In this document: in pieces, positions 3,323 to 9,139 of the stretch
How the letters are laid out: every line of letters begins with the position of its first letter
Numbering within the stretch: the stretch's first letter is position 1
From: Leptospira sp.
GTDB lineage: Bacteria; Spirochaetota; Leptospiria; Leptospirales; Leptospiraceae
Assembly: GCA_034439575.1 (NCBI GenBank)
Contig: JAWXAQ010000021.1
Span: 1 to 45,372 of the forward strand
Length of the DNA: 45,372 nt
Direction: 5' to 3'
The notes under the pieces: generated by a model
Told to the model about the DNA's origin: nothing
The model's input: only the letters and a program-made list of their open reading frames with translations
Databases searched by the model: none
Position numbers and translations under genes: made by a program

Positions 3323-3640
3323 ATGCAAGAAAAAGAAACTTTTATAAAGAATAATTTCTGGAAAAAGATCAAAGAAACAGGTGCGAAGTTGCCATTCGTA
3401 AATGATGTGATCGCGATGTATTATTGTTTACTAGACGAAAAAACTTCGCTCAGTGCAAAGGCATCAATCGTTTTTGCTTTGTTATACTTTATCACTCCAA
3501 TAGATGTGATTCCAGATTTTATTTTGGCACTTGGATATACGGATGATGCAACAGTGATAGCATCTACTATCTTACTCTTGAAATCCCAGTTAAAAACAGA
3601 ACATTATGAGAAAGCGAAAGCGTCTCTAGAAAAAGAATGA
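3323..3640 (+). CDS. DUF1232 (YkvA-family) membrane protein
   Basis: Signature ALLYFITPIDVIPDFILALGYTDD. Confidence 0.9.
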   Translation: MQEKETFIKNNFWKKIKETGAKLPFVNDVIAMYYCLLDEKTSLSAKASIVFALLYFITPIDVIPDFILALGYTDDATVIASTILLLKSQLKTEHYEKAKASLEKE

Positions 3641-3641
3641 T

Positions 3642-4562
3642 ATGAAAAAATCCTTAAATGAAATCTCATCGAGTTTTTTAATAAAAGATGATTTTTCATT
3701 TTGGAAAGAAATCCTTTACACTCACCTAACGTATGAACCTTTACCCCTCATTGTAAACAAAAATCATATCATTTCCGCTGCAGCTATGTGGGCTTATGTA
3801 AAAATTTGGAAAGAACATTTCAGAGAAAAAGGTGCGAAGAGTGGTGATACGATACTCCTTGCTCTAAGCGAATCACCAGAATGGATCATGATACTCCTTG
3901 CTTCCTTTTGGGAAAATTTACGGGTCATTCTTTGCGATCCCAAGCAGGTCAGTATTGATACGATCCCTGAAGTCTGGGGTATTTTTAGCGAAGATAAAAA
4001 TATCACAAATTGGACATTCTCAGAGCAATTAACACCTATTTGTTTGCGCGAGCCAAATCAATTATACAAAAATGAATCGATTAAAGAACGTATTTGTTTT
4101 CACTCATATTCGTCCTCTGCAAAGATTTTAGACAAAAACAAGACAGAAAAAAAAATAAATCAAAGTTTAAGTGATAAACAATTCGCAGAATTTATATCAA
4201 AAGTAAAAATAGAAAACAAACCAAAAGGAGTTTTGTCGAGTTTACCATGGTTTTCACCTATTGGATTTTATTTTGATTTTTTTCTAAATTATTTTTCAAA
4301 AAAGGAAATATTTCTCACACAAAAATTTCAAAACCCAAATATAGAATACACAGAACTATTTAATGCTTTTTCCATTGATAAAATTATAACTACTACTCAG
4401 CAAAGCCCTATGATTAATCAATGTGCTTTAATATCTACAAAATCGCACTCTGAAATTGAAATAATCTGCTTCGAAGAACGCGAATTAAATGATATTTCAC
4501 TTTTGTTTATGGATAGTAATTTTTCGTTTTCCGAGAAACGAAATTCTATTTCCAATCAGTAA
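3642..4562 (+). CDS. Degenerate/truncated AMP-binding (ANL, acyl-CoA ligase-like) protein; candidate p-coumarate:CoA ligase homolog
   Basis: A2-like GAKSGDTILLALSESPEWIMILLASFWENLRVILCDP and A4-like VLSSLPWFSPIG. The P-loop is degenerate and C-terminal ANL motifs are absent. Adjacent to the pyp/tal genes. Confidence 0.55.
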   Translation: MKKSLNEISSSFLIKDDFSFWKEILYTHLTYEPLPLIVNKNHIISAAAMWAYVKIWKEHFREKGAKSGDTILLALSESPEWIMILLASFWENLRVILCDPKQVSIDTIPEVWGIFSEDKNITNWTFSEQLTPICLREPNQLYKNESIKERICFHSYSSSAKILDKNKTEKKINQSLSDKQFAEFISKVKIENKPKGVLSSLPWFSPIGFYFDFFLNYFSKKEIFLTQKFQNPNIEYTELFNAFSIDKIITTTQQSPMINQCALISTKSHSEIEIICFEERELNDISLLFMDSNFSFSEKRNSISNQ

Positions 4563-5198
4563 AGAATCGGCATATTCTTCACGTAAATCGAGTATCTGTG
4601 CTCTCAAATTTTCATAAGAATCTATTATATCTTCTGGCGTTGTAGCACCAATATGGTTTTGCAAATATTCTTTATCAGCATATAGACTATCCAATTGTGC
4701 TTCCATCAATGCGATTTCATTGGATTCGTTTTCCATTGAATTTATATCAATTGTGGATTCTATTCGAATTACTTCTCTTATAGGTTTCGTTAAAAATTCT
4801 TGAATTTCTTCCAATTCTGTTTCATGAATTAATGGTTCTATGGCTATTAGTAAAAAAGTAATGAGAGATGCCTTACCAACTAACACAGAGTTTGCTTGAC
4901 CAGATTTGAAATTCTGATATTGAATTTGAGTGTTTGTTTGTTTCCAAAAACATTTCAGTTCTATGTATTTTGTAAACATAGTCACACTGAGTTCTGATTC
5001 CACTTCCACATCCCGAACCAATTCTAGAAAATCTGCGATGATACTTTCAATCCAAGTTTTTGTTTCCTTGAAATCTATATCTGAGATGGAATAATCTTCT
5101 CTCCACGAATGTAAGTTATGTGAAATATCTTCTTTAAAAGCTGGGTCAGTGAATACTGCCTCAACCGCGTTAACATCTATTTTTTTTACTAATTCCAT
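4497..5198 (-). CDS. PYP-associated hypothetical protein (helical N-domain plus C-terminal ExQLxxLY module)
   Basis: Likely start MELVKK at 5198 overlaps the PYP-1 stop (alternative start 5213). C-terminus aligns with ORF 5619-5867. Confidence 0.8.
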   Translation of the reverse strand: MELVKKIDVNAVEAVFTDPAFKEDISHNLHSWREDYSISDIDFKETKTWIESIIADFLELVRDVEVESELSVTMFTKYIELKCFWKQTNTQIQYQNFKSGQANSVLVGKASLITFLLIAIEPLIHETELEEIQEFLTKPIREVIRIESTIDINSMENESNEIALMEAQLDSLYADKEYLQNHIGATTPEDIIDSYENLRAQILDLREEYADSLLIGNRISFLGKRKITIHKQK

Positions 5199-5617
5199 TT
5201 TACAAATATCCAATTGTTCGGTCTTGCAGGTCCCCGATAGAGATGTATTTTTACTGGTGTCGGTTTCATTTTATATGTAAACGTATATGGAAAAATAAGA
5301 TCCATTCTTCTTTCATCTACGCCTTTTTTAAAACTTCCATAAAAAATTTGGTTATTTGTGCAAGGTGCGATTTCTGTGAAAAAATTCTTTCCAAGAGCAG
5401 TTTTTGGATCTACGTTTGCTCGTTCTCCTTCATACTGATTAAACATTTTAATAATGCCTTTATCATCTACGGAAATTACACCAAACTCAAGCTTGTCGAT
5501 CTCAGTAGATGAAAACGTTTGTAGCTTTTGTAATAATTCATCATTAACAAAACGCATCTCACCCTTGGCATAAAATTCTGCTTGTTTTTGAATTTTGGAA
5601 ACAAGATGGTCAGACAT
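5189..5617 (-). CDS. pyp: Photoactive yellow protein (PYP-1), with ~20-aa N-terminal extension
   Basis: FGVISVDDKG..FN..E, GKNFFTEIAPCTN (chromophore Cys69 equivalent), FYGSF, YTFTYKMKPTPVKIHL, WIFVK. AGGAGG RBS upstream. Confidence 0.95.
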   Translation of the reverse strand: MSDHLVSKIQKQAEFYAKGEMRFVNDELLQKLQTFSSTEIDKLEFGVISVDDKGIIKMFNQYEGERANVDPKTALGKNFFTEIAPCTNNQIFYGSFKKGVDERRMDLIFPYTFTYKMKPTPVKIHLYRGPARPNNWIFVKWN

Positions 5618-5618
5618 A

Positions 5619-5867
5619 CTAAACCCCTCCTACCAAACGATTTTTTTCAATAAATACATTTTTTATGTCAGTGATGCTAACATTTGTAGCAGGGACTTTT
5701 CTATAATTTTCTTTCAAGCCATATAAATGAATCAGTTCTTTTTCTAATTCACTAAATTTTAAAACAATTTCTTTAGGATCTGAAGTTCCCAGTTTTTGTT
5801 CTAAAAGTAATTTTTCATCATATAAATAAATTAGCTGATTTTCGAAACTTTCTTTCAATTCTTCCAT
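5619..5867 (-). CDS. Small PYP-associated coiled-coil protein (ExQLxxLY module)
   Basis: 82-aa ORF ending 1 nt before the pyp ATG. Internal repeat ENQLIYLY/EKELIHLY. Confidence 0.8.
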   Translation of the reverse strand: MEELKESFENQLIYLYDEKLLLEQKLGTSDPKEIVLKFSELEKELIHLYGLKENYRKVPATNVSITDIKNVFIEKNRLVGGV

Positions 5868-5955
5868 ATCTGGACTTTAGACTACAAAGAAAAAAAAATG
5901 TTTTGATTTTGAAAAATTTTTATGTCAAATGAAAGAATCTTAGCAAGGAAAATGA

Positions 5956-7404
5956 ATGTCCCTATTCCTCTCTGTCGAAAAATTATACAACATATCACGT
6001 GGAGAATATTATCCAGAATTAAACTTTAATGACTTAAATGCAAGCCACCAAGCTTTATTGGATTATCTTAACAATGATAAAAATGAATTACTTTACGGAA
6101 TAGACACAGGTTTTGGTCCACATGCTTTCAAAAAAAATGAAGATCGGATAGAAAATCAAAAATCACTTATCTACCATCTAACAGCCACCTCCGATACAGA
6201 TTGTATCCAACATGAGGAAGCAAGAGCCGTTTTAGCGGCGAGGATTCATTCTTTAAGTTTGGGTGGAAGTGGCATTTCGCCAAATACTTTGGAACTTTTG
6301 AGATCATTATTGAACCAAAACATTATACCCAAAATTCCAAAAAGAGGCTCACTTTCAGCATCTGGTGATTTAATTCCATTAAGCGCCATTGGTCTTGCAC
6401 TTATGGGCGAGAATGAATGGTCAGGAGAGAACAGGCATAAGGCGCCGTCCCCATCAAATCAGAAACATTCTGAATTCAAAGGTTTACCCTTAGAGCTTAA
6501 ACCCAAAGAAGCTTTATCTCTCACGAACGGAACTAGTTTTACTACCGCATTACTTGCATTACAAGTAGAATCTAGTATTAAACTTCTAAATCATTCCCTA
6601 AACTTACTCGAAATTTTATTTAGTTTTCACTCTGTCTTTGCAGATGCTTTTTTACCAGACCTTCACAAAACAAAGGGATTTAAAGGTCCAATTCAAGTTG
6701 CAAATAGACTTTATCCCGTTATTAAGAAAAATAACAAAGTAAAGGTGGAAGGGAAACGAGTTCAAGATATTTATTCTATTCGTTGTATTCCTCAAATCTT
6801 CGGATCTCTTATAGATGAAATAGATTCATTGAAACAAGTTGTTGAAATAGAATTAAATTCTTTATCGGATAATCCTGTTTACATTGAGAGTGAAAATAGA
6901 TTTGTAGAGGGGGGAAATTTTTATGCTTCTCATGTTAGTTTCGCCGCAGATAGATTACAAAATTGTTTAGCAGTTTTCGCCACTTGGATCGAACGATTCA
7001 TTCAGTATCTATATGACCCAAATCAAAATTTTGATTTTTCACTTTCATTATCTCCAGATCCGGGAAAATATGCAGGACTCTCGGGCTTAGGATTACTTGC
7101 AACTCACCTAACAGCAGAAATAAGAAGGGATTCAATGCCAGGATCTGTTCAATCTCTAACTAGCAACGGTGGTAACCAAGATATAGTTCCCATGGGCGCC
7201 ATTAGTGTTCTTAGAAATAGACGCAGTATCGAATCCCTTTTTTCTTTAACTTCAATTTTTGCTTACTCCATTTACCAAGCTGGTTTTTTGAAAGGTATTA
7301 ATTTCGAAGATAAAAATATCTTTGAAGGTATCAAATCATCGAATAAAGATCGACCCCTTAAGGAAGAATTAAGAAAAATCGAATTATTTTTAAAAAATCA
7401 ATAA
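5956..7404 (+). CDS. Aromatic amino acid ammonia-lyase, probably tyrosine ammonia-lyase (TAL)
   Basis: YGIDTGFG, MIO-forming GSLSASGDL, KEALSLTNGT, QDIYSIRC.PQ, DNP, GGNFY, NQD. Specificity motif LIYHL is TAL-type His-Leu. Adjacent to pyp. Confidence 0.9.
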   Translation: MSLFLSVEKLYNISRGEYYPELNFNDLNASHQALLDYLNNDKNELLYGIDTGFGPHAFKKNEDRIENQKSLIYHLTATSDTDCIQHEEARAVLAARIHSLSLGGSGISPNTLELLRSLLNQNIIPKIPKRGSLSASGDLIPLSAIGLALMGENEWSGENRHKAPSPSNQKHSEFKGLPLELKPKEALSLTNGTSFTTALLALQVESSIKLLNHSLNLLEILFSFHSVFADAFLPDLHKTKGFKGPIQVANRLYPVIKKNNKVKVEGKRVQDIYSIRCIPQIFGSLIDEIDSLKQVVEIELNSLSDNPVYIESENRFVEGGNFYASHVSFAADRLQNCLAVFATWIERFIQYLYDPNQNFDFSLSLSPDPGKYAGLSGLGLLATHLTAEIRRDSMPGSVQSLTSNGGNQDIVPMGAISVLRNRRSIESLFSLTSIFAYSIYQAGFLKGINFEDKNIFEGIKSSNKDRPLKEELRKIELFLKNQ

Positions 7405-7424: not shown

Positions 7425-8657
7425 TCATTCTTCTCTTAAAAATTTATCTGTTTCTCTTGAAATTTCTTTCACTTTATCCTGCATTTTTTTAGTTAGGCGG
7501 TTTAACCAATCTTTCGATTGTTTCATATTTTCACATTCAACTTGAATCTTGTCTGAGAGAGATTGTGTTTCTTCTAAACTTCCATTTATATTAATCACTT
7601 CCCCATACACCTCCCCAGATGTATCTCGAACTCTTTCTGCAATTTCATCTAAGGACTTGGCTTTATCTAGAACGATACTACCGCGAGTTTTCAATTCTGC
7701 TATCGATTGAATCACTTCGGCAATAGTTCCATGTACAACATGAATCTCTGACGCAATGAATTCAAAAGCTTGACCAGATTCAGTGCTCGCATTACTTGCT
7801 AAACCATAGTCTACAATGTTATTTCTAAGTAATTTAGTAATCTCACGAGCGTTTTGTGCTGTTTGTGTCGCAAGTTTCCTGATTTCATCAGCAATGACAG
7901 TAAACCCTTTGCCTTCGCTACCAGAATGTGTTGCTTCAATAGAAGCATTGATAGCTAGCAAATTAGTTTCTTTAGAGACTCCATTAATAAAATCGATCAA
8001 TTTGAGAATACCACCAGATGATTCAGATATCCTTTTAATTGTTTCTCCTGTTTTCTTTACTTTTTCACCACCTTCATGGCTTCGTTCCACGAGTTCTTCC
8101 ATAGTTTTATTGCGACCTTGAATTTCATCAATGACAGTATTCACGATATCAAACATAATATTAATTTCCGTTGAAGTTTTACCAACGGCATCCATAAGGG
8201 TTACTTCCTCCGCTGCGAGTTTAGAAACAATAGTATAAACATTTCCAATATCATGGCCCATTAAAGATATTTTTTGGTTCAATTCTTTTAAATGTGAATT
8301 TACCTCCAAAATAATATCATCTAACGATTGTAAATTTAAATTGATTAAATGAGAATATTCTTCTAAATCAACTCCCACAGCAGCAAGAAGAATCACAGGA
8401 TCAGCCCTTAAAACTTTGGGCTCGATCATCCTTTTGAAAAATTGAAATTTTATCGTTTTTAAAATTAAAGTTGATGCGACTATTCCTAGAAGAAAAAAGC
8501 CAGTGAAGAAATGATTACGAATGAAAAAATCAGGAAAAAAAACAATCCAGAATAATGATAAAAATAATAAAACCAAACAACTAAAAATAATCAAATCAAG
8601 TTGTTTTACATGTTGCAAAACATCATGCCGAGAATTTTTTATTAAATTTTTTTCCAT
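7425..8657 (-). CDS. Methyl-accepting chemotaxis protein (2 TM, no periplasmic sensor domain)
   Basis: Signalling-hairpin motif INGVSKETNLLAINASIEATHSGSEGKGFTVIADEIRKLA; two closely spaced N-terminal TM helices. Confidence 0.92.
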   Translation of the reverse strand: MEKNLIKNSRHDVLQHVKQLDLIIFSCLVLLFLSLFWIVFFPDFFIRNHFFTGFFLLGIVASTLILKTIKFQFFKRMIEPKVLRADPVILLAAVGVDLEEYSHLINLNLQSLDDIILEVNSHLKELNQKISLMGHDIGNVYTIVSKLAAEEVTLMDAVGKTSTEINIMFDIVNTVIDEIQGRNKTMEELVERSHEGGEKVKKTGETIKRISESSGGILKLIDFINGVSKETNLLAINASIEATHSGSEGKGFTVIADEIRKLATQTAQNAREITKLLRNNIVDYGLASNASTESGQAFEFIASEIHVVHGTIAEVIQSIAELKTRGSIVLDKAKSLDEIAERVRDTSGEVYGEVININGSLEETQSLSDKIQVECENMKQSKDWLNRLTKKMQDKVKEISRETDKFLREE

Positions 8658-8767: not shown

Positions 8768-9139
8768 ATGACAAGTTTTATAGAACCTACTTTTTTGGGT
8801 AAATTGAAGTCATTGTCTCAAGAGGAAGCAGACAGTGAAAATTTTGGAATTGTTAAAGTGGATGAAAATGGAAAGATTCTCTTATATAACAAATTTGAAT
8901 CTGAATTGGCAAACGTACCCATTTCCACAGCCGTTGGTAGAAATTTTTTTACAGAAATTGCCATTTGCACAAACAATAGATTATTTTATGGTAAGTTCAA
9001 AGATGGGATTTTGAAAAAAGAAATGGATGCTACATTTAGTTATGTATTTACCTACAAAATGAAACCCACAAATGTGATGATCCAACTCTACAAAGATAAA
9101 GTTTCAAATACAAATTGGATTTTTGTCAAACCAAAGTAA
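8768..9139 (+). CDS. pyp: Photoactive yellow protein (PYP-2)
   Basis: FGIVKVDENG.ILLYNKFE (Y42/E46 equivalents), GRNFFTEIAICTN (Cys69), FYGKF, YVFTYKMKPT, WIFVK. GGAG RBS. Confidence 0.95.
   Translation: MTSFIEPTFLGKLKSLSQEEADSENFGIVKVDENGKILLYNKFESELANVPISTAVGRNFFTEIAICTNNRLFYGKFKDGILKKEMDATFSYVFTYKMKPTNVMIQLYKDKVSNTNWIFVKPK

What the first reader, a model, noticed from the sequence alone, without database searches (positions are those of the whole stretch)
4497..5867. Unnamed shared module in the two unknown ORFs that flank pyp1
Seen: the 82-aa ORF (FENQLIYLYDEKLLLEQKLGTSDPKEIVLKFSELEKELIHL) aligns without gaps to the C-terminus of the 238-aa ORF (MEAQLDSLYADKEYLQNHIGATTPEDIIDSYENLRAQILDL), 12/41 identical by hand count. 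Consensus: ExQLxxLYxxKxxLxxx[LI]GxxxPx[ED]I. Both end in a short beta-like basic tail (NVSITDIKNVFIEK / RISFLGKRKITIHKQK). The ExxLxxLY unit occurs twice in the small ORF. The three genes appear translationally coupled (1-nt gap and 10-nt overlap). Inference: a helix-turn-helix/coiled-coil module that binds PYP or assembles a PYP signalling complex, i.e. a candidate new PYP-partner domain.
Basis: partly seen in the sequence, partly recalled or inferred. Interest (0 to 1): 0.85.

Follow-up and report, generated by a model that had tools for sequence, protein, structure and literature searches.

The report
Undescribed repeat protein family beside PYP
The two unknown genes that flank this Leptospira's blue-light sensor gene (photoactive yellow protein) share a real helical repeat from an undescribed protein family that lies next to, or is fused to, that sensor in several bacterial phyla, so it is a testable candidate for the sensor's unidentified partner.

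Summary
The 82-aa ORF (5619-5867, -) and the C-terminus of the 233-aa ORF (4497-5198, -) share a homologous module. Pairwise evidence is weak: 12/41 identities, 1 of 2000 shuffles reaches the score, and BLASTP finds nothing. Profile evidence is clear (hhalign E 2.6e-6; reciprocal HMM hits).

The module is about 1.3 copies of a ~33-residue helical repeat, followed in both proteins by a basic beta-type tail. No Pfam, NCBIfam or PDB family covers it.

Linkage to pyp is strong:
- In 41 genomes of the genus, the 30 with pyp are exactly the 30 with the module.
- A pyp-blind DNA motif scan of GTDB genomes gave 48 module loci in at least 5 phyla. 45 of them carry a Cys-bearing pyp in the same 8 kb, 38 with the module gene directly upstream.
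- 50 of 147 listed database relatives are tandem repeat arrays fused to a PYP-like domain. 49 of those 50 lack the chromophore cysteine.

Physical binding to PYP is not shown, and "helix-turn-helix" is not supported. I read the two ORFs as accessory subunits of an old pyp cassette.

The scan noted this repeat family earlier on other DNA. I found no description of it in the papers searched.

The parts
5619..5867 (-). 82-aa ORF ('S82'). Minimal member of the repeat family: two repeat helices plus a basic C-terminal tail.
   Evidence: ORF and translation. 8 close homologues. Present in 24 of 41 genomes of the genus. Model pLDDT 88.5 with helices 2-26 and 31-54. dN/dS 0.12-0.25.
5706..5849 (-). 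Shared module in S82 (residues 7-54). Motif E-x-Q-L-x-x-L-Y-x-E-K at residues 9-19, a G-T-S-D turn at 27-30, and a second E-x-x-L-x-x-L-Y at 42-49.
   Evidence: hhalign against the 233-aa family covers columns 7-48 and against the third family covers 6-53. Alignments A4 and A10.
5622..5705 (-). C-terminal tail of S82 (residues 55-82). A diverged form of the family's basic beta-type tail.
   Evidence: Aligns with the tails of the 233-aa family and of non-Leptospira members. Coil at pLDDT about 79 in the monomer model.
5189..5617 (-). pyp1: photoactive yellow protein, 142 aa, with an ~19-residue N-terminal extension. Cys69 equivalent is C86 and Glu46 equivalent is E63. Phe stands at the Tyr42 position (F59).
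   Evidence: TIGR02373 E 8e-33, 113.2 bits, below the 143.05 cut-off. Alignment A5. Residue columns.
4497..5198 (-). 233-aa ORF ('L233'): N-terminal helical domain, then the module, then a beta-hairpin tail. The ATG at 5198 overlaps the pyp1 stop by 10 nt.
   Evidence: 43 homologues, all of the named ones from Leptospira and called hypothetical, except one JGI record named 'glutaredoxin-related protein' and one UniRef record named 'PF05338 family protein'. Model pLDDT 75.9.
4758..5174 (-). N-terminal helical domain of L233 (residues 9-147). A second PYP-linked family, which occurs as a separate ORF in other taxa.
   Evidence: pLDDT about 90. Found as a stand-alone ORF beside pyp in 28 of 48 module loci and in G314. 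No known fold assigned.
4569..4718 (-). Shared module in L233 (residues 161-210): helices 161-182 and 188-210.
4500..4568 (-). Basic beta-hairpin tail of L233 (residues 211-233).
   Evidence: Strands 212-215 and 218-221. The motif is conserved across the family.
5956..7404 (+). Aromatic amino-acid ammonia-lyase (probable tyrosine ammonia-lyase for the chromophore), divergent from the S82-pyp1-L233 operon.
   Evidence: PF00221 E 2e-98. NCBIfam hits. Same position in 4 related genomes.
7425..8657 (-). Methyl-accepting chemotaxis protein, 410 aa, with no recognised sensor domain. It neighbours pyp2.
   Evidence: PF00015 E 1.7e-26. Gene maps. Adjacency of Leptospira PYPs to such receptors is noted in PMC9664959 (passages).
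8768..9139 (+). pyp2, 123 aa, the short PYP type. In this clade no module gene lies upstream of it.
3642..4562 (+). Short (306 aa) acyl/coumarate-CoA-ligase-like ORF, convergent with L233 and overlapping its 3' end by 66 nt.
   Evidence: Weak PF00501 hit, E 0.0097. The 490-aa ligase ORF of the G310 operon has this ORF as its best phmmer label; ligases beside pyp2 in relatives are 467-496 aa.

Best explanation
S82 and L233 are two members of an undescribed, multi-phylum family of PYP-associated proteins.

Anatomy. The family is built from a ~33-residue helical repeat whose core motif is E-x-Q-L-x-x-L-Y-x-E-[KR]-E-x-L ... S82 is the minimal form, with two such helices and a basic tail. L233 carries the same two helices and tail behind a separate helical domain.

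The cassette. Both genes belong to an old three-gene cassette of module protein, PYP and N-domain protein. In this window the cassette is read as one translationally coupled operon, so the three proteins would be made together.

What is shown (computationally):
- homology of the module in the two ORFs;
- the repeat structure;
- purifying selection on both ORFs;
- strict co-occurrence with pyp in the genus;
- conserved adjacency to pyp across phyla;
- natural fusions of repeat arrays to PYP-fold domains.

What is inferred: the repeat helices, with or without the tail, bind PYP or assemble it into a complex. That complex would pass on or shape the light signal towards whatever output the organism uses. 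In Leptospira the output would be a sensor-less MCP, and in Myxococcota and Proteobacteria an HTH domain fused to PYP.
For: Homology:
- hhalign E 2.6e-6, 5.1e-12 and 1.2e-6 between the three Leptospira families.
- Reciprocal HMM hits.
- Repeat spacing of 33 residues (63 times) or 32 residues (50 times) in relatives.

Co-occurrence: pyp is in 30 of 41 genomes of the genus and the module is in the same 30; 11 genomes have neither.

Adjacency within Leptospira:
- A third module family lies directly upstream of pyp2 in 25 of 25 loci examined.
- S82-pyp1-L233 is found in 7 genomes.
- In another genus (G310) the order is S82-like, pyp, ligase, L233-like, lyase. In G314 it is module gene, pyp, N-domain gene.

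Adjacency elsewhere:
- A DNA pattern for the repeat motif alone gave 64 loci in GTDB genomes. 48 of them hold a module ORF, and 45 of those 48 also hold a PYP ORF.
- Arrangement in the 45: module directly upstream on the same strand in 38, downstream in 5, fused in 1, divergent in 1. The 3 loci without a PYP ORF are cut by the locus or contig end.
- The 16 pattern loci without a module ORF hold 0 PYP ORFs.
- 46 of the 47 PYP ORFs in these loci keep the chromophore Cys.
- Record titles name Planctomycetota, Armatimonadota, Leptospirales, Spirochaetaceae, Myxococcota-type and Proteobacteria-type MAGs, and Saltatorellus ferox.

Fusion: the module profile finds 453 proteins at E<=1e-3 among 1.84 billion representatives. 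50 of the 147 newly listed ones carry a C-terminal PYP-profile domain behind 2-12 repeats.

A link independent of chromophore chemistry: 49 of those 50 fused domains lack Cys69. None of the 50 has Tyr42, and 1 of 50 has Glu46.
Against: - No binding experiment or structure exists.
- The pairwise similarity is weak.
- In 17 of the 24 genomes of the genus with S82 and L233, the two genes are adjacent to each other, behind an atypical MCP-like gene in the 7 of 8 such loci mapped where it lies within range, and on another contig or replicon than pyp. Operon linkage to pyp is therefore not obligatory.
- G057 (73% complete) has an S82-like ORF but no PYP match, and none on its 6.9-kb contig.
- A Rhodothermaceae MAG with a 9-repeat array gave no PYP-profile match at E<=1e-3.
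- 97 of the 147 listed relatives have no PYP domain in the same chain, and their gene context was not examined.
- Genomes of one genus are kin, and the cassette may spread as a unit, so the counts overstate the number of independent events.
- In some operons the two genes are interleaved with the chromophore enzymes. That also fits a maturation role.
Confidence: 0.6

Rival explanations
1. Holo-PYP maturation factors. The repeat proteins hold apo-PYP or the coumarate-CoA ligase so that the chromophore can be attached. They would not be involved in signalling.
For: The genes are interleaved with ligase and lyase genes in G310 (S82-like, pyp, ligase, L233-like, lyase). In several loci of other taxa the lyase lies in the same 8 kb. 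In the window the lyase is divergent from the operon and a ligase-like ORF is convergent with it.
Against: 49 of 50 natural fusions join the repeats to PYP-fold domains that lack the Cys, Tyr and Glu needed to hold the chromophore. In 17 genomes S82 and L233 sit far from pyp, ligase and lyase; in the 7 of 8 such loci mapped where it lies within range they follow an MCP-like gene. Per PMC12826048 (section 8), the classic pyp-pcl-tal operon consists of three genes.
Confidence: 0.15
2. Partners of the chemoreceptor rather than of PYP. The repeat helices dock on, or extend, the helical bundle of the adjacent MCP or MCP-like protein. PYP is only a neighbour in the same pathway.
For: The operon MCP-like gene, S82, L233 without pyp is seen in 7 of the 8 biflexa-type loci mapped. 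By coordinates, 17 genomes have this type. An MCP gene lies directly upstream of the cassette in L061 and L071.
Against: Most module loci outside Leptospirales have no MCP in the 8 kb: 4 of 48 loci have one, against 45 of 48 with pyp. In Myxococcota and Proteobacteria-type loci the module ORF follows an HTH-PYP fusion. The fusions are to PYP-fold domains, not to MCP domains.
Confidence: 0.15
3. Generic coiled-coil filler. The similarity reflects only helical, charge-rich composition, and the adjacency is an accident of shared descent.
For: BLASTP finds no pairwise alignment. Structural matches of the S82 model are generic long helices and coiled coils with Z<=4.9. PDB sequence hits are designed coiled coils at E about 1e-3.
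Against: Position-specific conservation, with Q, L-Y and the G-x-S-D turn nearly invariant. A fixed 32-33-residue period. Profile E-values down to 1e-72 for the arrays. pyp in 45 of 48 loci that were chosen by the motif alone, against 0 of 16 control loci.
Confidence: 0.03

Closest known systems
PYP-binding protein PBP of Rhodobacter capsulatus (RCAP_rcc01067; bioRxiv 10.1101/2021.06.01.446672, passages read)
   Same: A small acidic protein encoded next to pyp. It is predicted to have N-terminal helices followed by beta structure, and it is the only reported protein that binds a PYP in a light-dependent way. This is the functional model for S82 and L233.
   Different: No sequence relation was shown. 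None of the named hits among the 120 listed (of 132) of a family profile search is from Rhodobacter. The PBP sequence is in a supplement that I could not open. PBP is 142 aa. The authors report finding no similar protein in the Halorhodospira halophila genome.
Leptospira PYP plus sensor-less chemoreceptor model, by analogy with CetA/CetB (Xing, Gumerov and Zhulin 2022, PMC9664959; passages read)
   Same: Same loci. The pyp genes of Leptospira lie beside MCPs that lack a sensor domain, and PYP is proposed to feed light signals into chemotaxis.
   Different: In the passages read, that model has two components. The intervening genes appear only as 'hypothetical protein' in a figure legend. The repeat family, the N-domain family and their spread beyond Leptospira are not mentioned there.
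pyp-pcl-tal operon of Halorhodospira halophila, and the survey of 113 predicted pyp operons (Dohmen et al. 2025, PMC12826048; abstract, section 8 and passages read)
   Same: A pyp gene clustered with the lyase and ligase genes that make and attach p-coumaric acid.
   Different: The recurring operon partners listed there are GGDEF/EAL, HisKA/HATPase, pCL, TAL and BLUF. No helical repeat protein is listed. The survey covers Cys69-containing homologues only, so the Cys-less fused forms fall outside it.
Multi-domain PYP proteins (Ppr, Ppd, MCP-PYP fusions; PMC12826048)
   Same: A PYP-fold domain at the C-terminus of a longer protein, as in the MCP-PYP fusions.
   Different: Here the N-terminal part is 2-12 copies of an unannotated repeat, and 49 of 50 of the PYP-fold domains have lost the chromophore residues.

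Membership tests
PYP-associated ~33-residue helical repeat family (undescribed; defined here by profile A4) | Repeat motif with invariant Q, L-Y and a G-x-S-D turn at a 32-33-residue period | tested here: met
   S82 residues 9-49 and L233 residues 165-210 align to it. The period was measured in relatives.
PYP-associated ~33-residue helical repeat family (undescribed; defined here by profile A4) | Encoded next to, or fused to, a PYP-fold gene | tested here: met
   In the window the 1-nt gap and the 10-nt overlap couple the genes to pyp1. In the wider family, 45 of 48 loci hold pyp and 50 of 147 listed relatives are fusions.
PYP-associated ~33-residue helical repeat family (undescribed; defined here by profile A4) | Physical binding to PYP | not testable with these tools
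   Needs SEC, ITC or pull-down with purified proteins.
Rhodobacter capsulatus PBP family | Sequence similarity to RCAP_rcc01067 | tested here: inconclusive
   No hit named as Rhodobacter among the 120 listed hits of the family profile. The PBP sequence itself was not available because supplements are closed.
Helix-turn-helix DNA-binding domains | Match to a curated HTH model, or a short three-helix DNA-binding fold | tested here: not met
   No Pfam or NCBIfam family at E<=1 for S82, and only a noise hit for L233. The model shows two helices of about 24 residues each.
Any curated protein family (Pfam-A, NCBIfam) or solved structure | Profile match above the curated cut-off, or a PDB relative | tested here: not met
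   Searches give only sub-threshold noise, including on 8 long relatives. PDB sequence searches give E>=1e-3 against designed coiled coils only.
Known folds (structure comparison) | Clear structural match of the L233 N-domain or of S82 | tested here: inconclusive
   Foldseek finds no match at E<=1e-3. VIA-align gives a best Z of 8.3 for the N-domain (HscB, rmsd 2.9 over 86 residues; a de novo design, rmsd 4.2 over 117 residues) and 4.9 for S82 (rmsd 5.1 over 60 residues), within the range of generic helical matches.
Photoactive yellow protein (for pyp1) | PYP profile match plus Cys69, Glu46 and Tyr42 | tested here: inconclusive
   TIGR02373 E 8e-33 but 113.2 bits, below the 143.05 cut-off. The Cys69 and Glu46 equivalents are present, and the Tyr42 position is Phe in 8 of 8 pyp1-type proteins. 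L. biflexa PYP is listed as a characterised PYP in PMC12826048.

The most novel reading that the evidence does not exclude
The repeat family is the long-sought direct downstream partner of PYP. Its helices would bind the light-activated state of PYP and couple it to whatever output is present: an MCP in Leptospira, or a fused HTH domain in Myxococcota-type loci. The long arrays fused to chromophore-less 'blind' PYP domains would then be built-in regulators or scaffolds that pair with the real PYP.
Probability: 0.35. Interest if true: 0.92.

Novelty: categorically new. Interest (0 to 1): 0.8.

Why it matters
PYP has been a model photoreceptor and the structural prototype of PAS domains for about 40 years. 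How single-domain PYPs pass their signal on is still called unknown in the 2022 and 2025 surveys I read.

This finding points to two unannotated protein families, the repeat family and the L233 N-domain family. Both keep company with pyp across at least five phyla, whatever the output.

The repeat family is also naturally fused to PYP-fold domains. That gives concrete, small, soluble candidates for binding and knock-out tests. Leptospira biflexa is a non-pathogenic species that carries all three Leptospira module families, so it is a natural place to test them.

The work also yields a profile that would annotate several hundred 'hypothetical proteins'.

What is new is the protein family and its link to pyp. 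The PYP system itself is well known.

Tried and rejected
- BLASTP of the two ORFs gave no alignment.
- Pfam and NCBIfam scans of both ORFs and of 8 long relatives gave nothing above noise.
- Fold searches with the L233 and S82 models gave only generic helical matches.
- PDB sequence searches gave noise.
- ESM Atlas gave no usable hit: TM<0.5 for L233 and a feature score of 0.78 for S82.
- Complex prediction with pyp1 (alignment A5) and S82 (alignment A6) returned 'no answer', score 0.00 in two runs, and the controls were not run. This counts neither for nor against binding.
- The search for related loci rejected alignments A7 and A8 as not conserved enough. I used a degenerate DNA pattern instead.
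- Test of whether the R. capsulatus PBP belongs to the family: no hit named as Rhodobacter among the 120 listed hits. This is inconclusive without the PBP sequence.
- Expression: four public runs were laid on 4400-6000.
  - Three wastewater libraries labelled RNA-Seq are probably DNA. Their short contigs cover parts of all three genes and bridge both gene junctions.
  - One metatranscriptome holds a single 156-nt contig on L233.
  - None of this shows transcription.
- Promoter and terminator scan: 8 promoter-like sites against 9.5 expected, and no terminator.
- A first reading of the 'Tyr42' and 'Glu46' columns used the wrong columns. One search replaces it.
- The PF05338 label carried by one UniRef homologue is not reproduced by my Pfam scan of the window's protein P0002.
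Full report
**1. What is at the locus**

The window comes from a saprophytic Leptospira. The closest named homologues are from L. ognonensis and L. ryugenii. Between 3.3 and 9.2 kb it encodes the following:

| Coordinates | Strand | Gene |
|---|---|---|
| 3323-3640 | + | DUF1232 protein |
| 3642-4562 | + | short ligase-like ORF |
| 4497-5198 | - | 233-aa ORF (L233) |
| 5189-5617 | - | pyp1 |
| 5619-5867 | - | 82-aa ORF (S82) |
| 5956-7404 | + | aromatic ammonia-lyase |
| 7425-8657 | - | sensor-less MCP |
| 8768-9139 | + | pyp2 |

One base separates the S82 stop from the pyp1 start. The pyp1 stop overlaps the ATG of L233 by 10 nt. Homologues of the window's own clade start at that ATG, not at the upstream TTG that gives 238 aa. 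No terminator-like site lies inside the three genes.

**2. The observation**

- The best local alignment scores 61, and 1 of 2000 shuffles of either protein reaches it.
- BLASTP reports nothing, so the pair alone is marginal.
- With families the signal is clear.
- Searched through 41 genomes of the genus, the S82 profile finds the C-terminus of L233 in many genomes and the L233 profile finds S82.
- The tails also align. In relatives outside the window's clade, the S82-type tail has the same basic motif as the L233 tail.
- Both genes evolve under purifying selection. dN/dS is 0.12-0.25 in the 3 of 8 comparisons where dS is not saturated.

**3. A third family, and the gene maps in Leptospira**

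The module part of the L233 profile also hits an ORF of 84-134 aa directly upstream of the short pyp on another contig. In complete genomes this is the second replicon. The hits have E 1e-9 to 1e-6 per genome, and hhalign gives E 5.1e-12.

Gene maps show four arrangements:
- (a) Window clade, 5 genomes: S82-pyp1-L233, then lyase, MCP and pyp2.
- (b) Biflexa type: an atypical MCP-like gene followed by S82 and L233 with no pyp between them. A separate locus holds ligase / pyp2 with its module gene / MCP.
- (c) Two genomes: MCP-like gene, S82, pyp1, L233, plus the second locus.
- (d) Genomes with the second locus only.

In all 25 second-type loci fetched, the module gene is directly upstream of pyp2.

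Genome-level counts in the genus:

| Feature | Genomes of 41 |
|---|---|
| pyp | 30 |
| module (L233 profile at E<=0.01) | the same 30 |
| neither | 11 |
| S82 | 24 |
| full-length L233 | the same 24 |

These genomes are kin, so the counts are not independent events.

**4. The module is a repeat found far beyond Leptospira**

I built a 36-sequence module profile and searched 1.84 billion representative proteins. It found 453 proteins at E<=1e-3 and 213 at E<=1e-10. The best hits are long proteins, up to 1290 aa, with up to 15 matched stretches.

- Spacing between successive motifs is 33 residues (63 cases) or 32 residues (50 cases).
This is why the E-x-x-L-x-x-L-Y unit appears twice in S82, 33 residues apart.

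Of the 147 newly listed proteins:
- 50 carry a C-terminal domain that matches a Leptospira PYP profile.
- 29 end in the basic tail, and none of these is PYP-fused.
- 9 carry the L233 N-domain.

The fused PYP-fold domains are 'blind'. The Cys69 position is Cys in 1 of 50, the Tyr42 position is Tyr in 0 of 50, and the Glu46 position is Glu in 1 of 50.

No Pfam family covers the repeats. Named members are 'hypothetical protein' or, for fused ones, 'photoactive yellow protein'.

**5. An unbiased test of linkage**

I scanned one genome per GTDB species with a degenerate DNA pattern for the repeat motif only and got 64 loci.

- 48 loci hold an ORF matching the module profile. The other 16 are probably chance matches, mostly in high-GC actinobacterial MAGs.
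- Of the 48, 45 also hold a PYP-profile ORF within the 8-kb locus.
  - Module gene directly upstream on the same strand: 38. Two of these are overlapping frames that may be fusions or frameshifts.
  - Downstream: 5.
  - Fused: 1 (L072, Chthonomonadaceae, Cys kept).
  - Divergent: 1.
- The three loci without a PYP ORF are cut by the locus or contig end.
- None of the 16 control loci has a PYP ORF.
- 46 of the 47 PYP ORFs keep the chromophore Cys.
- 28 of the 48 loci also encode the L233 N-domain as a separate ORF.

Record titles place these loci in Planctomycetota (many Phycisphaerae, and Saltatorellus ferox), Armatimonadota, Leptospirales, Spirochaetaceae, Myxococcota-type and Proteobacteria-type MAGs and Rhodothermaceae.

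In the Myxococcota and Proteobacteria-type loci, PYP carries what reads by eye as an N-terminal HTH domain (no family scan was run on it), and a 70-77-aa module ORF follows it.

Within the phylum of the window:
- G310 has S82-like, pyp, ligase, L233-like, lyase.
- G314 has module gene, pyp, N-domain gene.

**6. Structure**

- L233 model (pLDDT 75.9): a confident helical N-domain at residues 9-147, a linker, two module helices at 161-182 and 188-210, and a beta hairpin at 212-221.
- S82 model (pLDDT 88.5): helices 2-26 and 31-54 separated by the G-T-S-D turn, with the tail unassigned.
- Whether the two helices fold back on each other or stay extended cannot be read from the output.
- The structural neighbours are generic long helices with Z<=4.9.
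- No fold or sequence relative with a known function was found.

**7. Interpretation**

The following are shown by computation:
- a real, conserved, selected module;
- its repeat nature;
- a tight and phylogenetically wide link to pyp, both as neighbour and as fusion partner of PYP-fold domains.

The link holds whatever the likely output (MCP, HTH or none nearby). It also holds for PYP-fold domains that cannot bind chromophore. Both points favour a protein-protein role with the PYP fold over a role in chromophore attachment.

I therefore read S82 and L233 as accessory subunits of an old pyp cassette. Most likely they bind PYP or assemble it into a signalling complex (confidence 0.6). The family and its linkage I hold at above 0.9.

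Points against this reading:
- The biflexa-type genomes keep S82-L233 with an MCP-like gene away from pyp.
- G057 has an S82-like ORF without a detectable pyp.
- One Rhodothermaceae MAG with an array has no PYP match.
- 97 of 147 listed relatives were not examined for gene context.

Rival readings (maturation factor, MCP partner, generic coiled coil) are scored in their own section.

**8. Comparison with what is known**

- The 2022 survey (PMC9664959; passages) notes that Leptospira PYPs lie beside sensor-less chemoreceptors and proposes a CetA/CetB-like pair. The genes in between appear only as 'hypothetical protein' in a figure legend.
- The 2025 survey (PMC12826048; abstract, section 8 and passages) lists recurring operon partners and fused domains for Cys69-containing PYPs. 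It names no helical repeat.
- The only reported PYP-binding protein, the R. capsulatus PBP (preprint; passages), resembles this family in size, acidity and gene position. It was not shown to be a member.
- Full-text searches for PYP with Leptospira, 'PYP-binding protein', 'helical repeat', and hypothetical protein with L. biflexa and chemotaxis found no description of this family.
- Supplementary data sets of these papers were closed and may list the neighbouring genes.
- Earlier notes of this scan describe the same repeat family on other DNA. I reached the same reading before seeing them.

**9. Verdict**

The protein family is undescribed as far as I could search. Interest 0.8.

Noticed in passing
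window 5189-5617 (-) and 8768-9139 (+): The two PYPs are distinct types. All 8 pyp1-type proteins have Phe at the Tyr42 position and a conserved ~19-residue N-terminal extension. All 15 pyp2-type proteins have Tyr and no extension. Outside Leptospira, the PYPs next to module genes mostly have the extension as well, since the profile match starts near residue 19.
   Followed up: partly
window 3642-4562 (+): The ligase-like ORF is only 306 aa and overlaps the 3' end of L233 by 66 nt. Its AMP-binding match is weak (E 0.0097). The ligases of relatives are 467-496 aa. The genome has a second ligase-like ORF of 387 aa on contig C16. Which enzyme loads the chromophore here is unclear.
   Followed up: partly
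L038 1067-2191 (+); G000:C8:291391-292506 (L126 3383-4507, -): The 'MCP-like' gene that precedes S82-L233 in biflexa-type genomes encodes a 374-aa protein with only the conserved receptor tip near its N-terminus; I saw no evident membrane segment by eye, and the following ~250 residues were not scanned against any family library. In the window's genome its orthologue (61% identity) stands alone on another contig.
   Followed up: partly
P0053-P0199 (database relatives): 50 proteins are tandem arrays of 2-12 repeats fused to 'blind' PYP-fold domains that lack the Cys69, Tyr42 and Glu46 equivalents. Only P0103 keeps the Cys. The GTDB locus L072 (Chthonomonadaceae) is a Cys-bearing fusion.
   Followed up: partly
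L074, L080, L104, L110: In Myxococcota-type and Proteobacteria-type MAGs the PYP carries, by eye, an N-terminal excisionase/MerR-like HTH segment (no family scan was run on it). In L074, L104 and L110 a 70-77-aa module ORF without a tail follows it; in L080 the 71-aa module ORF is divergent.
   Followed up: no
L071 2440-2946 (-); L057 6599-7024 (+): The L233 N-domain occurs on its own downstream of pyp. In L071 it carries the basic tail directly, without repeats. N-domain, repeats and tail therefore combine freely.
   Followed up: no
L013 3873-4277 (-) against L019 2405-2716 (-): The pyp2-linked module protein comes in forms of 134, 103 and 84 aa. The 134-aa form differs from the 103-aa form by a 31-residue insertion that duplicates the Q-x-x-x-L-Y-A-E-K-E motif.
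   Followed up: no
L063, L085, L098, L113, L120, L122: Planctomycetota and gammaproteobacterial members end in a different C-terminal element, with Trp-containing beta-like strands, instead of the basic tail.
   Followed up: no
window 3323-3640 (+): A DUF1232 gene ends 1 nt before the ligase-like ORF. The same pair is present in G029 (L043).
   Followed up: no
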